From: Dehalococcoidia bacterium
GTDB taxonomy: Bacteria; Chloroflexota; Dehalococcoidia; Plut-88900
Length of the DNA stretch: 64,000 nucleotides
Direction: 5' to 3'
Assembly: GCA_965197645.1 (NCBI GenBank)
Contig: OZ240219.1
Span: 1,664,001 to 1,728,000 of the forward strand
Under the pieces are notes generated by a model, which ran no database searches, was not told the DNA's origin, and saw only the letters and a program-made list of their open reading frames with translations. Numbering within the stretch: position 1 is the stretch's first letter; each line of letters starts with the position of its first letter. The position numbers and the translations under genes are program-made. Shown here piece by piece: positions 41,116 through 52,762 of the stretch.

Positions 41116-41643
41116 TTGGCGGTTCGTCCCCTTAGAGTCGTGCCCGATCCGGTCCTTCGGCAGAAGGCCAAGAAGGTACGAAACATAGACGCCTCTATAC
41201 GCAGGCTGGTCGAGGATATGATCGATACGATGCGGGCCAACCATGGGGTTGGGCTGGCGGCGCCCCAGGTTGGCGTGTCCCTCAGGGTTATAGTAATCGA
41301 GATACCGGAGGAGCCGGTACTGACCATGGTCAATCCGGAAATAGTGAAAAGGTCCGGACTGCGGGATGTAACCGAGGGCTGTCTCAGCGTGCCCGGCTAT
41401 CGAGGCGAAATCAAGCGCGCCGAGACGATCACTGCCAAGGGACTGGGCCTTGACGGCAAAGTGGTACGGATCAAGGGCCAGGAGCTTCTCGCCCAGGCTC
41501 TGGAGCACGAAACTGGACATATTCAGGGCAACCTATACACTGACTTGCTGGAGAGCATGGACGATCTCTACAGGCTGGAGCTGGCAGAGGAATCGCCGAG
41601 GATCCATGCCGCCGATCCAGTATCCCACGGTACGGATAGTTGA
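41116..41643 (+). CDS. def: Peptide deformylase
   Basis: GVGLAAPQVG, EGCLS, EHETGHI. Confidence 0.95.
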   Translation: MAVRPLRVVPDPVLRQKAKKVRNIDASIRRLVEDMIDTMRANHGVGLAAPQVGVSLRVIVIEIPEEPVLTMVNPEIVKRSGLRDVTEGCLSVPGYRGEIKRAETITAKGLGLDGKVVRIKGQELLAQALEHETGHIQGNLYTDLLESMDDLYRLELAEESPRIHAADPVSHGTDS

Positions 41644-43130
41644 ACACTGAAACAGAGATAGATACCAACGCTGTCCCTTTCCTGGGGCAGCTGGCAGCAC
41701 ATATCCGAGACCACGCCGGCGAAACCTACCTGGTTGGCGGGTTCCTGCGGGACACTCTCCTGGGTCGATCGACCGGTGACATCGACCTGGCGGTTACGGG
41801 CCCCTTCGAGTCCCTGGCTGGGACCATCGCAGACTCCTTGAACGGTACCCTCGTAGTGCTGGGCAAAGAGGAGCGGGTTGCCCGGGTAGTCTTATCCACT
41901 GACGAAGTCCGCCAGATAGACATCACGCCCATCACCGAGGACATAGCCTCGGATCTGGCGCGCCGAGACTTCACCATAGATGCCCTGGCCGTCTCACTGG
42001 ATTACGCAAACGGCGCACCCTGCGTTGCCGACGTCATCGATCCATTCGGCGGGGTGAAGGACCTTCGAAAAGGGGTAGTCCAGGCAGTGGGTACGGAGGT
42101 CTTCCGAAACGATCCGGTGAGGATGATGAGGGCGGTCCGGCTGTCGGCCGAGCTCGGCTTCTCCATAGACCGGGACACTCGGACCCTCATCAGAAGAGAC
42201 TGCCAGCTGTTGAAGGGAGTACCGGCCGAACGGACAACAGCCGAGTTGTGTCTCATCCTCGCCTCGAACCGCACACACCAATCGCTTGGACTGATGGAGG
42301 ACCTGGGCCTGCTGCGACTGATCATACCGGAGCTGGATGAAAGCATAGGCGTAGAACAGCCGAAGGAACACTACTGGGAGGTCTACGAGCATTTGCTGGA
42401 AACGGTACGCGCCGTCGAGCAGGTCATGGGCGAGACCACCGAAGAGCCCGATGCGTTCATAGGTTCCCTGGACTGGACTGGCGAGTACCTTCATTACCTG
42501 AATGAAGAAATGGCGGGTCCCTGCTCCAGGCGGGGCCTTGCGAAACTGGCGGCGCTTCTACACGACGTGGCCAAACCCCGGACCAAGACCATCCAACCCG
42601 ACGGTAGGATGAGGTTCTTCGGCCACTCCCAAGTTGGAGCCGAAATGGTGGGCCCAATCATGAGGAGGTTGCGGTTCGGTACGCGGGAGACGAGGCACGT
42701 GGAAGCCATAGTACTCCACCATCTCCGGCCGGGCCTGATGAACAGCCCCGGAGAGCCACCCACGCCTAGGGCGATCTACAAGTTCTTCCGCGACGCCGGC
42801 CGCTCCGCCGTGGACACCGTTCTGGTCAACCTATCCGATTACAGGGCCACCCGCGGGCCGATGCTTACCTGGGATGAATGGACCAGATACACGGAAAACT
42901 GCAAGCGTATCCTATCCAAGGGTCTGGAACAGAAGGCCCCTCGCCCTAAGCCCCTGGTCACGGGACATGATCTGATGAAGACGCTGCGAATATCCGAGGG
43001 CCCGCTGGTGGGAAGGCTGCTCGAAGAAGTTAGGGAAGCCCTGGCTGCCGGAGAGATCGATACCCGGGAGCAGGCCCTGGAACTGGCCGGGAAAAAGGTT
43101 GGAGCCTCGGTATCTGAAAGTACCGATTGA
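41640..43130 (+). CDS. cca: CCA tRNA nucleotidyltransferase with HD domain
   Basis: LVGGFLRD..LG...DIDL, DLARRDFTI, DPVRMMRA, LLHDVAK. Confidence 0.88.
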   Translation: MNTETEIDTNAVPFLGQLAAHIRDHAGETYLVGGFLRDTLLGRSTGDIDLAVTGPFESLAGTIADSLNGTLVVLGKEERVARVVLSTDEVRQIDITPITEDIASDLARRDFTIDALAVSLDYANGAPCVADVIDPFGGVKDLRKGVVQAVGTEVFRNDPVRMMRAVRLSAELGFSIDRDTRTLIRRDCQLLKGVPAERTTAELCLILASNRTHQSLGLMEDLGLLRLIIPELDESIGVEQPKEHYWEVYEHLLETVRAVEQVMGETTEEPDAFIGSLDWTGEYLHYLNEEMAGPCSRRGLAKLAALLHDVAKPRTKTIQPDGRMRFFGHSQVGAEMVGPIMRRLRFGTRETRHVEAIVLHHLRPGLMNSPGEPPTPRAIYKFFRDAGRSAVDTVLVNLSDYRATRGPMLTWDEWTRYTENCKRILSKGLEQKAPRPKPLVTGHDLMKTLRISEGPLVGRLLEEVREALAAGEIDTREQALELAGKKVGASVSESTD

Positions 43131-49727: not shown

Positions 49728-49931
49728 TAGGGGTGGGGTTGGGTATTTTACCTAGGGTTTGCGCCGGATTGACGCCGAACTCACTCGTCTAGTGTGCTGC
49801 TCCCTATGGAGACCTCAATGATAACAAACGGACGAAAAGAACGCCGGCGTTTACTGAAGAAGACGTTCTCTTGGGTTAAGTCCCGAATGCTATAGGTATC
49901 GCGGCTATGCTACAATGACATTGATTATGGT

Positions 49932-50375
49932 CTAGAATGGCAAATCGTCTGCTACCATCACGGGATCGTCTGAATTGCTTTCCCAATCAGCCAGCGCCCA
50001 CATTCCTTGGCCAAGACTCACAAATCTGGCGTCAGAACTTAGGTGAGCACCTGTATTCTTGACGGGGTCTTCCCCGGGTACATTGATGCCATAGTCAAGC
50101 AAATTGTCGTATATCGCCTTATAGTGCAATGGGGTTTGAGCACACCCCAGTATCTCGAACATCGTATCGTGCAAATCTTCTGACCGCAGTTGTTGACCTG
50201 CGGTGGCTCCTTCCCACTGGGAGTAGTCAGCGAGCATACCTCGATAATTCTCAACTTTCTCAGCGATGTGGTCGTATGAGGCTTGTGCCTCCTTCAATTG
50301 CCTGTCGCGATCTCCCAACTCTGCCTCCAACTCTTTCAGGCGTTTCGTTACGTCGCGGATTACGATACTACTCAT
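49932..50375 (-). CDS. Coiled-coil plus HARE-HTH (RpoE/delta-like winged helix) protein with acidic DDLPF tail
   Basis: Strong RBS AGGAGGAGG before ATG 50375; heptad N-terminus; PLHYKAI...AHLSSDARFVSLGQGMWAL; lower GC. Confidence 0.75.
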   Translation of the reverse strand: MSSIVIRDVTKRLKELEAELGDRDRQLKEAQASYDHIAEKVENYRGMLADYSQWEGATAGQQLRSEDLHDTMFEILGCAQTPLHYKAIYDNLLDYGINVPGEDPVKNTGAHLSSDARFVSLGQGMWALADWESNSDDPVMVADDLPF

Positions 50376-50430
50376 AAAATTCCTCCTCCTAGCCCTTGAC
50401 AACATGACCCTAGTGTGTTCAATGAATGTG

Positions 50431-50502
50431 TGGAGAGGACGGGTATCGAACCCGCATCACCCGACTCTAACTCGGGTATCTTCCCCATTAGAAGACCTCC
50501 CC
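50431..50502 (-). tRNA. Atypical tRNA-like gene: Ala identity elements, UAG anticodon, no encoded CCA
   Basis: GGGGAGG-TC-TTCT-AATGGGGA-AGAT-A-CCCGA-GTTAGAG-TCGGG-TGAT-GCGGG-TTCGATA-CCCGT-CCTCTCC-A (72 nt cloverleaf). Confidence 0.75.
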
Positions 50503-50505
50503 ACG

Positions 50506-50671
50506 ACGTGCATTCGGTAGGGTTTGCCCCCCGCCACCGGATCCCCGCAAGGGACCAGTGGCCAATGCCGAAGGTACGTGTGGCCCAGGTAGGGATTGCA
50601 CGTACAGCATTAATTGGTGTTGCAGCACCAGCTGATACTCCTGTGATCTCAGGCCCCTGCCTGGGCCACAT
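50506..50671. ncRNA. Two long stem-loops, candidate structured ncRNA
   Basis: Three-way junction 50506-50579; 16-bp inverted repeat TGTGGCCCAGGTAGGG/CCCTGCCTGGGCCACA enclosing an inner stem; several G-U pairs. Confidence 0.4.
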
Positions 50672-50775
50672 CCATTGTAGGGCAGCGCATGATACGCCGT
50701 CAATCGGAATATGAAGCAATTTTCCCCATGTAGTGTCCACCCGTCTCGTGCCTGCCGCAGAATGGCCATCGATAG

Positions 50776-51027
50776 TCAGTTATCAACCCGTACGATGGAG
50801 TGACCCATGGCCGGCCCCAACTTCGCTGGCAGGCCGTTCCGCCTACAATGAAGTCTGGCGAAGGCTGCCATCTTCCTGCGAGTCACCTCGAGGAATGTGT
50901 TTCCGTCCCATCCTCCAGCCCATTCCGTTGCACGTCCCATTCCGGCTAAGGCGAAAAGAAAGCTGTACACCGGCTCTGGTGGTCGGTTGAGGTACGAGAT
51001 TTTAACTACACCCACATCGAGTCCCAT
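50776..51027 (-). CDS. Small hypothetical protein, possibly truncated
   Basis: GGGGGAA RBS then MGLDVGVVKISYLNRPP...; no motif recognised with confidence. Confidence 0.45.
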   Translation of the reverse strand: MGLDVGVVKISYLNRPPEPVYSFLFALAGMGRATEWAGGWDGNTFLEVTRRKMAAFARLHCRRNGLPAKLGPAMGHSIVRVDN

Positions 51028-51099
51028 GCTGTTCCCCCCGTTGAATTTGGTCCAGCATTGTATCGGACCCGCGGCGATTTGAGAGGACCCTAACGGAAA

Positions 51100-51206
51100 C
51101 CCTCACCCCTGGCCCCTCTCCCTTAGCAAGGGAGAGGGGAATAAGAACAGGTGGGGGACACCCCCATACCCCCGTCAAAAGGGGCAAGGCCCCTTTGGAA
51201 TCCCCC
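51100..51206. repeat. Cluster of REP-like palindromes
   Basis: CCCTCACCCC..CCCCTCTCCCTT-AGC-AAGGGAGAGGGG; TGGGGG-ACA-CCCCCA; AAAGGGGC-AAG-GCCCCTTT. Confidence 0.7.
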
Positions 51207-51286: not shown

Positions 51287-52612
51287 TCAGCTCTCTAGCT
51301 GGTTTCGCAGGGCGTCCGCCAACCCGTCTATACTCACCCGCTCCTGGGCCATGGTGTCCCGGTTGCGGACGGTGACCTGGTGGTCATCCAGGGAGTCGAA
51401 GTCCACGGTGACGCAGAGGGGCGTGCCGATCTCGTCCTGCCGGCGGTAGCGGCGGCCGATGCTCTGGGCATCGTCGTACTGGGCCCGGAAGTGGGAGCGC
51501 ACCTGGTTGAAGACCTCCCTCGCCTTGGGCAGGAGCTTTTCGTTGCGGCTCAGGGGCAGGACGGCCACCTGCACCGGGCAGAGGTCTTTGTGCAGCTTCA
51601 GCAGGACTCGGGTCTCATCGCGGACCATCTCCTCGTGGTAGGCGTCGATGATGAAGGCCAGGGCGGCCCTGTCCACGCCGGCGGCAGGCTCGATGACGTA
51701 GGGCAGGACGTGCTCCTTGGCATCGTTGTCGAAGTAGGTTAGCGAGCGGCCGCTGCTCTGGGAATGCTGCTTGAGATCGTAGTCGGTGCGGTTGGCGATG
51801 CCCTCGAGCTCGGACCAGCCCATGGGGAAGAGGTACTCGACGTCGGAGCAGGCCTTGGCGTAGTGGGCAAGCTCATCGGCCTCGTGGGGCCGGAGGCGCA
51901 GGTTTTCCTTTCGAATGCCCAGGTCAACGTACCAATCGAACCGCTCCTGAATCCAGTACTCGAGCCACTCGTCGTCGGCGCCGGGGTTGACGAAGAACTC
52001 CATCTCCATCTGCTCGAACTCCCGGGTACGGAAGGTGAAGTTGCCGGGAGTGATCTCGTTGCGAAAGGACTTGCCTATCTGGGCGATGCCGAAGGGGAGG
52101 CGCTTGCGGGTGGAGGTGAGGACGTTTTCGAAGTTGACGAAGATGCCCTGGGCGGTCTCCGGCCTGAGGTAGACGGTGGCGGCGTCCTCCTCGACGGGGC
52201 CCATGAAGGTCTTGAACATCAGATTGAACTGTCGAGGATCGGCCAGATCGCCCCCGCAGTCGGGGCAGGTGTCACCCTCGAGATCGTCGGAGCGAAAGCG
52301 GTGATGACAGACCCGGCACTCGACGAGGGGGTCAGAGAAGCTGTCCAGGTGCCCGCTGGCCTTCCAGACATCGGGATGGAGAAGGATGGCCGAATCGAGG
52401 CCGACGACGTCGTCCCTCCCGTGTACCATCGATCGCCACCACGCCTCCTTGACGTTGCGCTTGAGCTCGACGCCCAGGGGGCCGTAGTCCCATACGCTGC
52501 CGAGGCCGCCGTATATCTCGCTGTTCTGAAAGATCAGCCCCCGGCGCTTGCACAGGGACACGATCTTCTCCATCGTCACTACGTCCGAAGTTTGGGTCAC
52601 AGGGGTCTCCAT
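51287..52612 (-). CDS. glyQS: Glycine--tRNA ligase (alpha2 type)
   Basis: [51 protein letters not shown]; start 52612 or 52573. Confidence 0.96.
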
Positions 52613-52762
52613 CGTGGTCGGTAGTCGGTAATGTACGGGTCTGACGCTTTTTCGAACGTTAACAATTTCGTCCAGGCATGTCAAAAGCGGATTTGAGTAG
52701 CGTCTTGACTGGGCAAGGCGCGATATGACAGACTAGGTCGTTGCTTCGGTAATCAGTCACAG

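What the first reader, a model, noticed from the sequence alone, without database searches (positions are those of the whole stretch)
50431..50502. tRNA with a full alanine identity set but a leucine anticodon
Seen: a 72-nt cloverleaf on the minus strand with the tertiary contacts intact (U8-A14, A15-U48, G18/G19 with U55/C56, T54-A58). The acceptor stem has G1-C72, G2-C71, G3-U70, G4-C69 and A73, and the D-loop has G20. The anticodon is UAG, the variable loop is only 4 nt, and the 3' end reads ACAC rather than ACCA. Established: those positions are the AlaRS identity elements, AlaRS ignores the anticodon, and bacterial tRNA-Leu normally has a long variable arm. Inference: it would be charged with Ala and could misread Leu CUA/CUG codons (allo-tRNA-like mistranslation), or serve as a non-ribosomal Ala donor or decoy. 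The CCA-adding enzyme at 41640 could complete the 3' end.
Basis: partly seen in the sequence, partly recalled or inferred. Interest (0 to 1): 0.88.

Follow-up and report, generated by a model that had tools for sequence, protein, structure and literature searches.

The report
Irregular tRNA heading a mobile cassette
A real but irregular transfer-RNA gene, which looks chargeable with alanine yet carries a leucine anticodon, heads a small foreign-looking two-gene cassette that recurs with other odd tRNAs in a few related bacteria, while the host still reads its leucine codons as leucine.

Summary
Window 50431-50502 (-) is a 72-nt cloverleaf called by ARAGORN and Rfam. It has G1-C72, G2-C71, G3·U70, G4-C69, A73, G20, anticodon UAG, a 4-nt variable loop and no encoded CCA. 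It is not a mutated resident tRNA-Ala or a tmRNA remnant. It is the lowest-scoring of 47 tRNAs in the genome and the only one without encoded CCA. It also has U10·U25, G32, G38 and A37. The genome keeps a canonical long-arm tRNA-Leu(UAG), and its CUA/CUG codons align with Leu in relatives, so the code is standard.

The new result is the context. The tRNA lies 52 nt upstream of a coiled-coil/HARE-HTH gene, in a low-GC insert of about 1.1 kb that 10 same-family genomes lack. In three other Chloroflexota-type genomes, homologues of this protein are also preceded, on the same strand and 80-121 nt away, by extra, mostly identity-mismatched tRNAs (anticodons UAA, UAA, GCU, UGC). Each of these cassettes is sporadic.

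Best reading: this is a cassette-borne irregular tRNA. It could be charged by AlaRS but is probably a weak decoder. Mistranslation is possible but not shown. No expression data were available.

The parts
50431..50502 (-). Irregular class-I tRNA gene: G3·U70/A73 acceptor, anticodon UAG, 4-nt variable loop, U10·U25, G32/A37/G38, no encoded CCA
   Evidence: ARAGORN, Rfam RF00005 48.2 bits, sequence, drawing, position counts
50503..50675 (-). Structured non-coding leader upstream of the tRNA: a long hairpin closed by a 16-nt inverted repeat, plus a second hairpin
   Evidence: MFE -82.1 kcal/mol, z -3.68, 0 of 200 shuffles as stable; inverted repeat I1 50579-50594/50655-50670; no Rfam family at E<=1
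50674..50703 (-). Sigma-70-like promoter candidate (TTGACG-18-TACAAT), about 170 nt upstream of the tRNA
   Evidence: 10 of 12 consensus matches, but 1 site found against 0.9 expected in shuffles, so only a candidate
49932..50378 (-). 148-aa protein gene 52 nt downstream of the tRNA: N-terminal coiled-coil-like region, HARE-HTH domain, acidic tail ending DDLPF that copies the C-terminal tail of a host SSB paralogue
   Evidence: ORF and AGGAGG ribosome-binding site; Pfam HARE-HTH E 1.1e-4, below gathering; NCBIfam RNAP delta-like, below cut-off; 3 homologues at 59-66% identity; alignment A1; SSB tails
49835..49872 (-). Terminator-like hairpin followed by a U-rich tract, after the HARE-HTH ORF
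   Evidence: Stem seen in the fold and the sequence; not called by the consensus scan (too few U)
49734..50824 (.). Low-GC cassette (tRNA, leader, HARE-HTH gene) absent from relatives
   Evidence: GC 52.3% against 60.8% for the genome and 63% for the flanking genes; a metagenome contig of a roughly 90%-identical relative joins 49733 to 50825 (joint table; letters in between not known); 10 same-family genomes have GlyRS followed directly by SbcD-like or LeuDH, with no tRNA
41640..43130 (+). CCA-adding-type class II nucleotidyltransferase (context only)
   Evidence: Pfam PolyA_pol, PolyA_pol_RNAbd, HD, tRNA_NucTran2_2

Best explanation
This is a genuine tRNA-shaped gene of an irregular kind. It arrived as the first gene of a small mobile or accessory cassette: promoter-like site, structured leader, tRNA, then 52 nt to a coiled-coil/HARE-HTH protein with an SSB-like C-terminal tip, then a terminator-like hairpin. 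Inferred mechanism: the tRNA is co-transcribed with the protein gene and cut out at its 5' end by RNase P. Because no CCA is encoded, it needs 3' trimming and CCA addition. Once matured, its G3·U70/A73/G2-C71/G20 set would make it a substrate of the single AlaRS. Its G32/G38/A37 anticodon loop, U10·U25 D stem and lack of encoded CCA would make it at most a weak reader of CUA/CUG. Its selected role is therefore tied to the cassette (expression or processing of the linked gene, or a tRNA-dependent activity outside bulk decoding), not to rewriting the code. Any Leu-to-Ala substitution would be low-level. Shown here: the cloverleaf, the identity nucleotides, the deviations, the standard meaning of CUA/CUG, the insertion, and the recurrence of the tRNA-to-HARE-HTH arrangement. 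Inferred: transcription, processing, charging and weak decoding.
For: The tRNA is real and complete. It is an outlier among the genome's tRNAs: lowest of 47 RF00005 matches, with every other class-I tRNA at 59.1 bits or more; 47 of 47 others encode CCA; G32 in 0 of 47; G10 in 42 of 47; G37 in 11 of 12 tRNAs with G36, including all three Leu CUN readers. A canonical 85-nt tRNA-Leu(UAG) and three tRNA-Ala genes are present. No resident tRNA is close (at most 55.8% by MAFFT). The code is standard: across 4 flanking genes, 8 CUA sites (53 aligned residues from relatives) give 94% Leu, and Ala is not among the residues listed for CUA or the six commonest for CUG.

Insertion: GC is 52% against 61%. 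The region is absent in 10 of 10 same-family GlyRS loci. The HARE protein is found in 0 of 11 same-order genomes. A relative's contig skips 49734-50824.

Recurrence: of 27 HARE-family loci examined, 4 have tRNA gene(s) ending 52-121 nt upstream on the same strand. These are the window, G443 (a Sec-like tRNA with anticodon UAA at 62.8 bits plus a class-I tRNA(UGC) at 37.6 bits lacking G3·U70 and CCA), G584 (a class-I tRNA with a Cys-type D arm, U73 and anticodon GCU, 67 bits) and G883 (a class-II tRNA with A73 and anticodon UAA, 60.6 bits). Canonical counterparts exist elsewhere in those genomes. The cassettes are sporadic: 1 of 22 genomes of G443's genus and 1 of 17 of G584's order. Transposase genes or fragments lie beside two of them. 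All four HARE ORFs have 48-50% GC in loci of 55-62%. The proteins are homologous, with 18 invariant columns.

Precedent: irregular tRNAs that are charged but not used in translation and sit in accessory contexts (PMC5389517, section 16).
Against: No RNA data exist for this organism in the runs offered, so transcription, processing, CCA addition and charging are all untested. The link rests on four cassettes; the other 23 HARE-family loci have no tRNA nearby, and the contexts of the three closest homologues (P0002-P0004) could not be fetched. The partner tRNAs are heterogeneous, so they may not share ancestry. The anticodon stem shared by three of them is common in unrelated tRNAs. G883's tRNA may simply be a foreign but self-consistent tRNA-Leu. 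Weak decoding is argued from departure from consensus, not measured. The arms are intact (one mismatch in 21 pairs), which is equally what an active tRNA would show. The promoter call is at chance level.
Confidence: 0.5

Rival explanations
1. Active, selected mistranslator: the tRNA is matured, alanylated and used by the ribosome at CUA/CUG, giving regulated statistical Leu-to-Ala substitution, perhaps controlled with or by the linked HTH protein.
For: The G3·U70/A73/G2-C71/G20 set is intact, and the acceptor, anticodon and T arms and the tertiary-contact nucleotides are all intact. AlaRS is present, as is a CCA-adding-type enzyme. Three of the five tRNAs in the related cassettes are also clearly identity/anticodon-mismatched although they fold well, which looks more like selection than decay. 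Known mistranslating tRNAs carry attenuating anticodon-loop oddities such as G33/A33 (PMC11415595 passages). The Ashbya mitochondrial tRNA(UAG) with G3:U70 does insert Ala (PMC3874161 abstract).
Against: CUG is 44 per 1000 codons, so efficient misreading would be very costly. The loop has G32, G38 and A37, with no G37; the D stem has U10·U25; no CCA is encoded; RNase Z is seen only as a sub-threshold MBL protein. No second AlaRS or dedicated partner is present. No conservation of this tRNA was found in 400 class genomes. No Ala appears at CUA/CUG-aligned sites, though that test cannot see low-level substitution.
Confidence: 0.2
2. Functionless relic: a foreign tRNA gene that hitch-hiked with the HARE-HTH gene and is decaying. 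G3·U70, G49·U65 and U25 would be ordinary C-to-T changes, and the UAG anticodon an accident.
For: It has the lowest tRNA score in the genome, no CCA, and four departures from near-invariant positions. It is a singleton among 185,579 species representatives for the strict pattern, apart from unrelated analogues. A metagenome contig covers 50430-50505 with 10 differences and 3 gaps; a HARE-gene piece covers 50017-50132 with 21 differences in 116. That gives no sign of stronger constraint on the tRNA than on its neighbour. The G443 class-I partner is visibly degenerate (G8, U56, a T-stem mismatch, 37.6 bits).
Against: Twenty of 21 stem pairs are standard and all tertiary-contact nucleotides are kept. 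The tRNA-first arrangement is retained across proteins only 28-35% identical, and the partner tRNAs in G584 and G883 score 67 and 60.6 bits.
Confidence: 0.15
3. Pure cis element: the cloverleaf serves only as an RNase P (and 3'-end) processing or stabilising module that defines the 5' end of the HARE-HTH mRNA. Charging and anticodon would be irrelevant, which would explain why partner tRNAs vary freely.
For: The order is constant (tRNA first, same strand, 52-121 nt before the ORF) in four cassettes, with different tRNA types and anticodons. No terminator lies between the tRNA and the ORF. There is no enrichment of cognate codons in the linked ORFs: 5/15, 5/14, 5/13 and 4/14.
Against: A processing signal needs only the acceptor/T-arm minihelix, yet the anticodon arms are intact in all five tRNAs. 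This overlaps with the best explanation and cannot be separated from it without RNA data.
Confidence: 0.1
4. A class-I tRNA charged by LeuRS (A73, A14, A15-U48, D-loop GG), i.e. an unusual but faithful tRNA-Leu.
For: A73 and A15-U48 are present, as in the resident Leu tRNAs. Bacterial LeuRS does not read the anticodon (recalled; PMC11415595 passages say LeuRS relies less on the anticodon).
Against: G3·U70 is a dominant AlaRS determinant. There is no long variable arm, no G37, and no resemblance to the five resident Leu tRNAs.
Confidence: 0.04

Closest known systems
Ashbya gossypii mitochondrial tRNA(UAG) charged with Ala (Ling et al. 2014, PMC3874161; abstract and outline seen)
   Same: It has a UAG anticodon combined with a G3:U70 pair that makes AlaRS the charging enzyme.
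   Different: There CUU/CUA are truly reassigned to Ala, no competing tRNA-Leu reads them, and the tRNA was shown to be transcribed, processed and charged. Here a canonical tRNA-Leu(UAG) coexists, CUA aligns with Leu, the gene is bacterial, chromosomal and cassette-borne, and nothing has been tested.
allo-tRNAs and irregular tRNA polycistrons of soil bacteria (Mukai et al. 2017, PMC5389517; passages and section 16 read)
   Same: These are extra tRNAs whose identity elements (including G3:U70) do not match their anticodons. They are sporadic, lie near mobile or toxin-antitoxin genes, and some are charged but not used in translation. That study also reports a U73/GCU irregular tRNA; the G584 partner here has U73 and GCU.
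   Different: allo-tRNAs have 8/4 or 9/3 acceptor/T helices and long variable arms. The window tRNA is 7/5 with a 4-nt variable loop. The link to a HARE-HTH gene did not turn up in my searches. The G443 partner, which matches the tRNA-Sec model and has anticodon UAA, is the nearest to an allo-tRNA.
tRNA-ProX family of Streptomyces/Kitasatospora (PMC11415595 passages; PMC10404621 seen only as a search listing)
   Same: It is a bacterial, genome-encoded tRNA combining identity elements of one amino acid with anticodons of another, with attenuating anticodon-loop features.
   Different: The ProX tRNAs form a conserved family across a clade. Here there is no conserved family and no dedicated synthetase, only one AlaRS.
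Yeast CUG-Ala clade tRNA-Ala(CAG) and human tRNA-Ala anticodon variants (PMC11415595 passages)
   Same: AlaRS ignores the anticodon, so an Ala-identity tRNA with a Leu or Gly anticodon inserts Ala.
   Different: Those are anticodon mutants of bona fide tRNA-Ala genes. The window tRNA's body is not tRNA-Ala-like.
Bacterial tRNA(CCG) with G3:U70 in a proposed CGG-to-Ala reassignment (bioRxiv 10.64898/2026.04.02.715157; passages read)
   Same: A bacterial non-Ala-anticodon tRNA has acquired G3:U70.
   Different: That case is tied to a clade-wide codon reassignment signal in low-GC genomes. Here there is no reassignment signal.
tmRNA tRNA-like domain
   Same: It has a GGGG... acceptor with G3·U70, a T arm and alanylation.
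   Different: The window element has full D and anticodon arms. The genome's tmRNA is intact at 2680279-2680635 with a different acceptor helix. The Rfam permuted-tmRNA hit is 17.7 bits against a gathering score of 47.

Membership tests
tRNA (Rfam RF00005, canonical elongator cloverleaf) | Full-length match above the gathering score with 7/4/5/5 stems | tested here: met
   48.2 bits against 29, model positions 1-71. One non-canonical pair (10:25).
tRNA (Rfam RF00005, canonical elongator cloverleaf) | Conserved elbow and core nucleotides (U8, A14, G18G19, U54-U55-C56, A58, U33) | tested here: met
   Read.
tRNA (Rfam RF00005, canonical elongator cloverleaf) | Conforms to the house style of this genome's tRNAs (encoded CCA, G10, pyrimidine or A at 32, G37 after G36) | tested here: not met
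   CCA 47/47 others against none here; G32 0/47; G10 42/47 against U10 here; G37 11/12 against A37 here.
tRNA-Ala (AlaRS substrates) | G3·U70 wobble pair | tested here: met
   G3 pairs with U70.
tRNA-Ala (AlaRS substrates) | Minor elements A73, G2-C71, G20 (E. coli set, recalled) | tested here: met
tRNA-Ala (AlaRS substrates) | Ala anticodon (NGC) and a tRNA-Ala-type body (paralogy with resident tRNA-Ala) | tested here: not met
   The anticodon is UAG. MAFFT identity to Ala(UGC/GGC/CGC) is 53.9/52.6/50.0%, below Glu(CUC) at 55.8%. The D arm, position 26 and variable loop differ.
tRNA-Ala (AlaRS substrates) | Aminoacylation with Ala | not testable with these tools
   Needs a charging assay. One full-length AlaRS is present.
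Bacterial tRNA-Leu (class II) | Long variable arm | tested here: not met
   4-nt variable loop, against the 85-87-nt resident Leu tRNAs.
Bacterial tRNA-Leu (class II) | A73, A15-U48, and G37 after anticodon NAG | tested here: inconclusive
   A73 and A15-U48 are present. A37 stands in place of the G37 found in all three resident CUN-reading Leu tRNAs.
allo-tRNA (Mukai 2017) | 12-bp acceptor branch split 8/4 or 9/3, and a long variable arm | tested here: not met
   7-bp acceptor, 5-bp T stem, 4-nt variable loop.
Natural identity-mismatched (potentially mistranslating) tRNAs | Identity elements of one aaRS combined with the anticodon of another amino acid | tested here: met
   G3·U70/A73 with UAG.
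Natural identity-mismatched (potentially mistranslating) tRNAs | Conservation of the tRNA across a clade | tested here: not met
   No full-length match in 40 relatives or 400 class genomes. None of 10 syntenic loci has a tRNA.
Natural identity-mismatched (potentially mistranslating) tRNAs | Demonstrated misincorporation | not testable with these tools
   Alignment of CUA/CUG sites shows Leu but cannot detect low-level substitution.
tmRNA remnant | tRNA-like domain without an anticodon arm, derived from the genome's ssrA | tested here: not met
   Full anticodon arm present. tmRNA is intact elsewhere with a different acceptor.
Irregular-tRNA plus HARE-HTH cassette (proposed here) | tRNA gene ending at most about 125 nt upstream of, and on the same strand as, a coiled-coil/HARE-HTH gene; low GC; sporadic presence | tested here: met
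   Window gap 52 nt; G443 121 nt; G584 80 nt; G883 91 nt. GC. Sporadic presence. Only 4 of 27 family loci, so the class is provisional.

The most novel reading that the evidence does not exclude
A mobile two-part module in Chloroflexota-type bacteria in which an identity-mismatched tRNA is the functional partner of a DNA-binding HARE-HTH protein that wears the host SSB's C-terminal tail. Here the tRNA is Ala-chargeable and Leu-reading; elsewhere it is Sec/Ser-like with a Leu anticodon, or Cys-like with a Ser anticodon. The module could be a conditional mistranslation or tRNA-toxin module with its own regulator, or a tRNA-dependent step in the cassette's DNA transactions.
Probability: 0.2. Interest if true: 0.8.

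Novelty: new variant of a known kind. Interest (0 to 1): 0.58.

Why it matters
Identity-mismatched tRNAs are the raw material of genetic-code change and of programmed mistranslation. Only a few natural bacterial cases are described in the papers I read: allo-tRNAs, tRNA-ProX, and a proposed CGG-to-Ala case. This locus adds a class-I bacterial tRNA that joins the AlaRS determinant to a Leu anticodon alongside an intact canonical tRNA-Leu(UAG). More usefully, it links such tRNAs to a specific, recurrent, mobile protein-coding partner. That gives a concrete handle for asking what these tRNAs are for: express the cassette, delete the tRNA or the protein, then measure charging, decoding and growth. 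If the tRNA proves inert, the locus still shows how foreign tRNA genes with hazardous identity combinations can be carried and tolerated.

Tried and rejected
**Homologue searches**
- BLAST of the tRNA against 40 relatives and 400 class genomes gave only 15-32-nt partial matches. On inspection these were T arms of ordinary tRNAs, tmRNA-like 3' ends, or chance matches inside coding sequence.
- A strict pattern (GGGG acceptor with G3·U70, A73, UAG, short variable loop) gave 10 hits in 185,579 species genomes, 48 in metagenome contigs and 6 in viral contigs.
- Of those 64 hits, only 14 loci (13 distinct sequences) are ARAGORN tRNA(tag) cloverleaves, scoring 46-65 bits in Rfam, with two below gathering.
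- None of them is close to the window tRNA, and pairwise identities are inflated by the pattern itself. This shows sporadic analogues, not a family.

**Phage or plasmid origin**
- No DNA or protein match of the cassette or the HARE protein was found in phages, plasmids or IMG/VR.
- Viral contigs do hold 5 tRNA-like genes with the identical G3·U70 acceptor helix, one with anticodon UAG (L128). The G3-C70 control found 22. This is suggestive only.

**Shared anticodon stem**
- The CCCGA/UCGGG anticodon stem shared by the window, G584 and G883 tRNAs was rejected as evidence of homology. The same stem occurs in more than 118 viral-contig tRNAs carrying at least 20 different anticodons.

**Other rejected or blank tests**
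- Codon supply for the linked gene: no enrichment.
- Target-site duplication at the cassette ends: only chance-level short repeats.
- D-stem pair probability as a quality measure: rejected after the control.
- RNase Z: only a 279-aa MBL protein below all cut-offs, so inconclusive.
- Expression: no RNA holder was listed among the sequencing runs. The four runs laid were contigs, so nothing can be said about transcription.

**Things that could not be done**
- tRNAscan-SE isotype models were not available.
- Supplements of the papers were closed and could bear on the lists of irregular tRNAs in PMC5389517.

**Claims of 'not in print'**
- These rest only on the searches in the held library.
Full report
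**1. Observation**

On the minus strand at 50502-50431 there is a 72-nt cloverleaf. ARAGORN calls it tRNA-Leu(tag). Rfam's tRNA model matches it end to end at 48.2 bits, against a gathering score of 29.
- Acceptor stem G1-C72, G2-C71, G3·U70, G4-C69, and discriminator A73.
- U8/A14, A15/U48, a GGGG run supplying G18, G19 and G20, and T-loop UUCGAUA.
- Anticodon UAG, a 4-nt variable loop, and ACAC instead of ACCA at the 3' end.

A pattern encoding this feature set matches once in the window and never in 100 shuffles. The ORF at 41640 has the domain set of a CCA-adding-type nucleotidyltransferase.

**2. How it compares with the genome's own tRNAs**

The window lies in a single 3.21-Mb contig. 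ARAGORN finds 50 tRNA genes. Two of these (95 and 89 nt, no CCA) have no Rfam support and I dropped them.

The genome has a canonical long-arm tRNA-Leu(UAG) (85 nt), four further Leu tRNAs, tRNA-Ala(CGC/GGC/UGC), tRNA-Sec and an intact tmRNA.

The odd tRNA is the lowest of the 47 RF00005 matches. Every other class-I tRNA scores at least 59.1 bits, and only long-arm tRNAs fall in the 49.9-57.3 range. Position by position:
- 47 of 47 other tRNAs encode CCA; this one does not.
- G32 occurs in 0 of 47 others, and G38 in 2 of 47.
- G10 occurs in 42 of 47; here U10 faces U25.
- Of 12 tRNAs whose anticodon ends in G, 11 have G37, including all three Leu CUN readers; here it is A37.

A one-base-shifted D stem is thermodynamically preferred. 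Genuine tRNAs vary from 0.02 to 0.99 on that measure, so I give it no weight.

The body is not tRNA-Ala-like. MAFFT identity is 55.8% to Glu(CUC) and 50-54% to the three Ala tRNAs. It has C9, A26, a 4-nt variable loop and A15-U48, whereas the Ala tRNAs have A9, G26, a 5-nt loop and G15-C48. The tmRNA's acceptor helix is different. So the tRNA is neither a recent anticodon mutant of a resident tRNA-Ala nor a tmRNA fragment.

**3. The genetic code is standard**

CUA is rare (4.5 per 1000 codons) and CUG is common (44 per 1000). I examined four flanking housekeeping genes against same-family relatives:
- 8 CUA sites with 53 aligned residues gave 94% Leu and no Ala.
- 63 CUG sites gave 82% Leu, with Ala not among the six commonest residues.

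If the tRNA works, it is a mistranslator, not a reassignment.

**4. The tRNA lies in an insertion**

In 10 of 11 same-family genomes GlyRS was found.
- None of those loci has a tRNA within 1.5 kb.
- In 7, an SbcD-like gene follows GlyRS directly; in 2, LeuDH does.

The window has an extra 1.56 kb between GlyRS and SbcD. GC is 52.3% for 49734-50824 and 50.1% for the ORF inside it, against 60.8% for the genome and 63% for both flanking genes.

A metagenome contig of a roughly 90%-identical relative, from a different study, joins 49733 to 50825, skipping exactly this part; the letters in between are not known. Short contigs from a second sample of the source study carry the cassette with no differences, so it is not an assembly artefact. 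The insert is single-copy apart from a 53-nt hairpin repeat.

**5. Anatomy of the insert (minus strand)**
- A promoter-like site at 50703-50674, at chance level.
- A 173-nt leader that folds much better than shuffles, z -3.68.
- The tRNA.
- 52 nt containing an AGGAGG ribosome-binding site.
- A 148-aa ORF.
- A terminator-like hairpin.

The protein has a sub-threshold HARE-HTH domain and a weak likeness to RNA polymerase delta. It has only three homologues (59-66% identity) among 5.8 billion proteins. All of them end in DDLPF or EDLPF. One host SSB paralogue ends in a 13-residue tail nearly identical to the tail of this protein.

**6. The turn: the arrangement recurs**

I searched the protein in 400 class genomes, a further set of 209 high-completeness class genomes, 400 phylum genomes, and relatives of the hits. 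This yielded 26 further family loci. They were scanned with ARAGORN and with Rfam at E<=0.5. Three have tRNA gene(s) ending 80-121 nt upstream of the ORF on the same strand:
- **G443.** A tRNA-Sec-model match (62.8 bits) with anticodon UAA, then 18 nt later a class-I tRNA(UGC) (37.6 bits) that lacks G3·U70 and CCA and has G8, U56 and U73. The ORF is 181 aa and ends ADDLPW.
- **G584.** A 67-bit class-I tRNA with the Cys-type D arm (A13·A22), U73, CCG in place of CCA, and anticodon GCU. The ORF is 151 aa, and an IS1595-like transposase lies 220 nt upstream.
- **G883.** A 60.6-bit class-II tRNA with A73, CCA and anticodon UAA, unlike that genome's own tRNA-Leu(UAA) (65% identity). The ORF is 144 aa and ends ADDRPW, and a transposase fragment lies nearby.

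Each genome has the canonical counterpart elsewhere: tRNA-Cys in G584, tRNA-Leu(UAA) in G443 and G883, and a second, better tRNA-Sec match in G443.

Each cassette is sporadic: 1 of 12 genomes in the window's order, 1 of 22 in G443's genus, and 1 of 17 in G584's order. All four ORFs have 48-50% GC in loci of 55-62%. The proteins align with 18 invariant columns in the HARE-HTH core.

A tRNA can sit directly upstream of at most one gene, so fewer than about 2% of genes in such genomes can have one (my estimate: 47 tRNAs per roughly 3000 genes). Four of 27 loci, or four of the five proteins nearest to the window's, is far above that. At least three of the five partner tRNAs have bodies that do not match their anticodons. 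The other 23 loci, mostly proteins with basic C-termini, have no tRNA close by on the same strand; only L048 has a normal tRNA-Ser, about 1 kb away on the opposite strand. The link therefore concerns one sub-family and rests on few cases.

**7. What I conclude**

The tRNA is a cargo or partner of a small mobile cassette. From the sequence it should be cut by RNase P, need 3' trimming and CCA addition, and be charged by the single canonical AlaRS through G3·U70. That is an inference from established identity rules, supported by passages in PMC11415595 and PMC5389517 and the abstract of PMC3874161.

Its anticodon loop and D stem depart from positions that every working tRNA of this genome keeps. 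I therefore expect feeble decoding of CUA/CUG. Given that CUG is 4.4% of codons, efficient decoding would be hard to tolerate.

Mukai et al. describe just such irregular tRNAs in soil bacteria. They are charged but not used in translation, or toxic, and lie near toxin-antitoxin and transposon genes (section 16). Whether the tRNA serves the expression of the linked gene, acts outside translation, or mistranslates at a low, conditional level cannot be decided without RNA and protein data.

**8. Evidence against, and limits**

There are no expression data: no RNA holder was listed, and the runs laid were contigs. The contexts of the closest homologues could not be seen. The partner tRNAs are heterogeneous. 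The anticodon stem shared by three of them is common in unrelated tRNAs. The arms are intact, which fits an active tRNA as well as a recently acquired one. A metagenome contig covers exactly 50430-50505 with 10 differences and 3 gaps; I could not read it, so I cannot say whether it is a homologue or whether its changes are compensatory.

**9. Comparison with known systems, and novelty**

The combination of G3:U70 with a UAG anticodon is known from Ashbya mitochondria, where it reassigns CUU/CUA to Ala (PMC3874161). AlaRS-charged anticodon variants are known in yeasts and humans, and identity-mismatched bacterial tRNAs from allo-tRNAs and tRNA-ProX (PMC11415595, PMC5389517). A 2026 preprint reports G3:U70 in a bacterial tRNA(CCG) (10.64898/2026.04.02.715157).

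My pattern scans found 13 distinct class-I G3·U70/UAG cloverleaves scattered over unrelated genomes and metagenomes, plus one more in a viral contig (L128). The bare combination is therefore rare but recurrent. The apparently new element is the linkage of irregular tRNAs to a HARE-HTH protein with an SSB-like tail in a mobile cassette. Four literature searches turned up no description of it.

I rate the finding a new variant of a known kind, with interest 0.58.

Noticed in passing
window 49932-50378 (-); genome C1 2509926-2510330 (+): The cassette protein's last 13 residues nearly copy the C-terminal tail of one host SSB paralogue (both end ...DDPVM..DDLPF). Its homologues end DDLPF, EDLPF, DDLPW or DDRPW. 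It looks like an SSB-tail mimic on a DNA-binding HARE-HTH protein. The genome has four SSB-domain genes, each ending in a PF or PFD tip.
   Followed up: partly
L154 1168-1251 (= G443:C9:291782-291865): A tRNA-Sec-model match (62.8 bits; 8-bp acceptor, 6-bp D stem, 4-bp T stem) with anticodon UAA instead of UCA, in addition to a better tRNA-Sec match elsewhere in that genome. It is allo-tRNA-like. G883 has three matches above the tRNA-Sec cut-off.
   Followed up: partly
L156 1250-1324 (G584): A 67-bit class-I tRNA with the Cys-type D arm (A13·A22) and U73 but anticodon GCU (Ser AGY) and CCG instead of CCA. A canonical tRNA-Cys exists elsewhere in that genome.
   Followed up: partly
L034, L038, L039, L040, L042, L072/L093, L076, L077, L084, L090, L100, L111, L112, L128: There are scattered class-I tRNAs with a GGGG acceptor, G3·U70, A73 and anticodon UAG in unrelated genomes, metagenomes and one viral contig. 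L040, in a Dehalococcoidia MAG chromosome, has a typical tRNA-Ala D arm and an encoded CCA. L039/L077 and L034/L076 are related pairs.
   Followed up: partly
L065-L070, L079-L081, L085-L089, L091, L092, L094, L096, L099, L105, L107, L108 and viral L116, L117: A conserved 80-nt element from marine-looking metagenome contigs starts GGGGAUAU and ends with a tmRNA-like T arm, a G3·U70 acceptor and CCA. It has no cloverleaf call and may be a mini tRNA-like or tmRNA-related RNA.
   Followed up: no
L127, L131 (viral contigs): Phage-contig tRNAs with the same G3·U70 acceptor helix as the window tRNA, no CCA and an 8-nt anticodon loop (ARAGORN anticodon 'cata'). The 3' half of L127 is nearly identical to that of the window tRNA.
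   Followed up: no
window 51098-51150; genome C1 671984-672036: A 53-nt perfect-hairpin repeat (CCCCTCTCCCTT/AAGGGAGAGGGG), present twice in the genome and matched by many metagenome contigs (depth spike). It is REP-like.
   Followed up: no
window 50503-50675 (-): The 173-nt leader upstream of the tRNA is strongly structured (z -3.68) and matches no Rfam family. A separate metagenome contig matches only its first hairpin (50591-50658).
   Followed up: partly
genome C1 492888-492982 and 904114-904202: Two ARAGORN calls (Thr ggt, 95 nt; Leu gag, 89 nt) lack CCA and have no Rfam tRNA match. They are probably false positives.
   Followed up: partly
window 51287-52684 (-): The GlyRS carries a zinc-ribbon-like insert (weak DUF7129 match, residues 121-148).
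   Followed up: no
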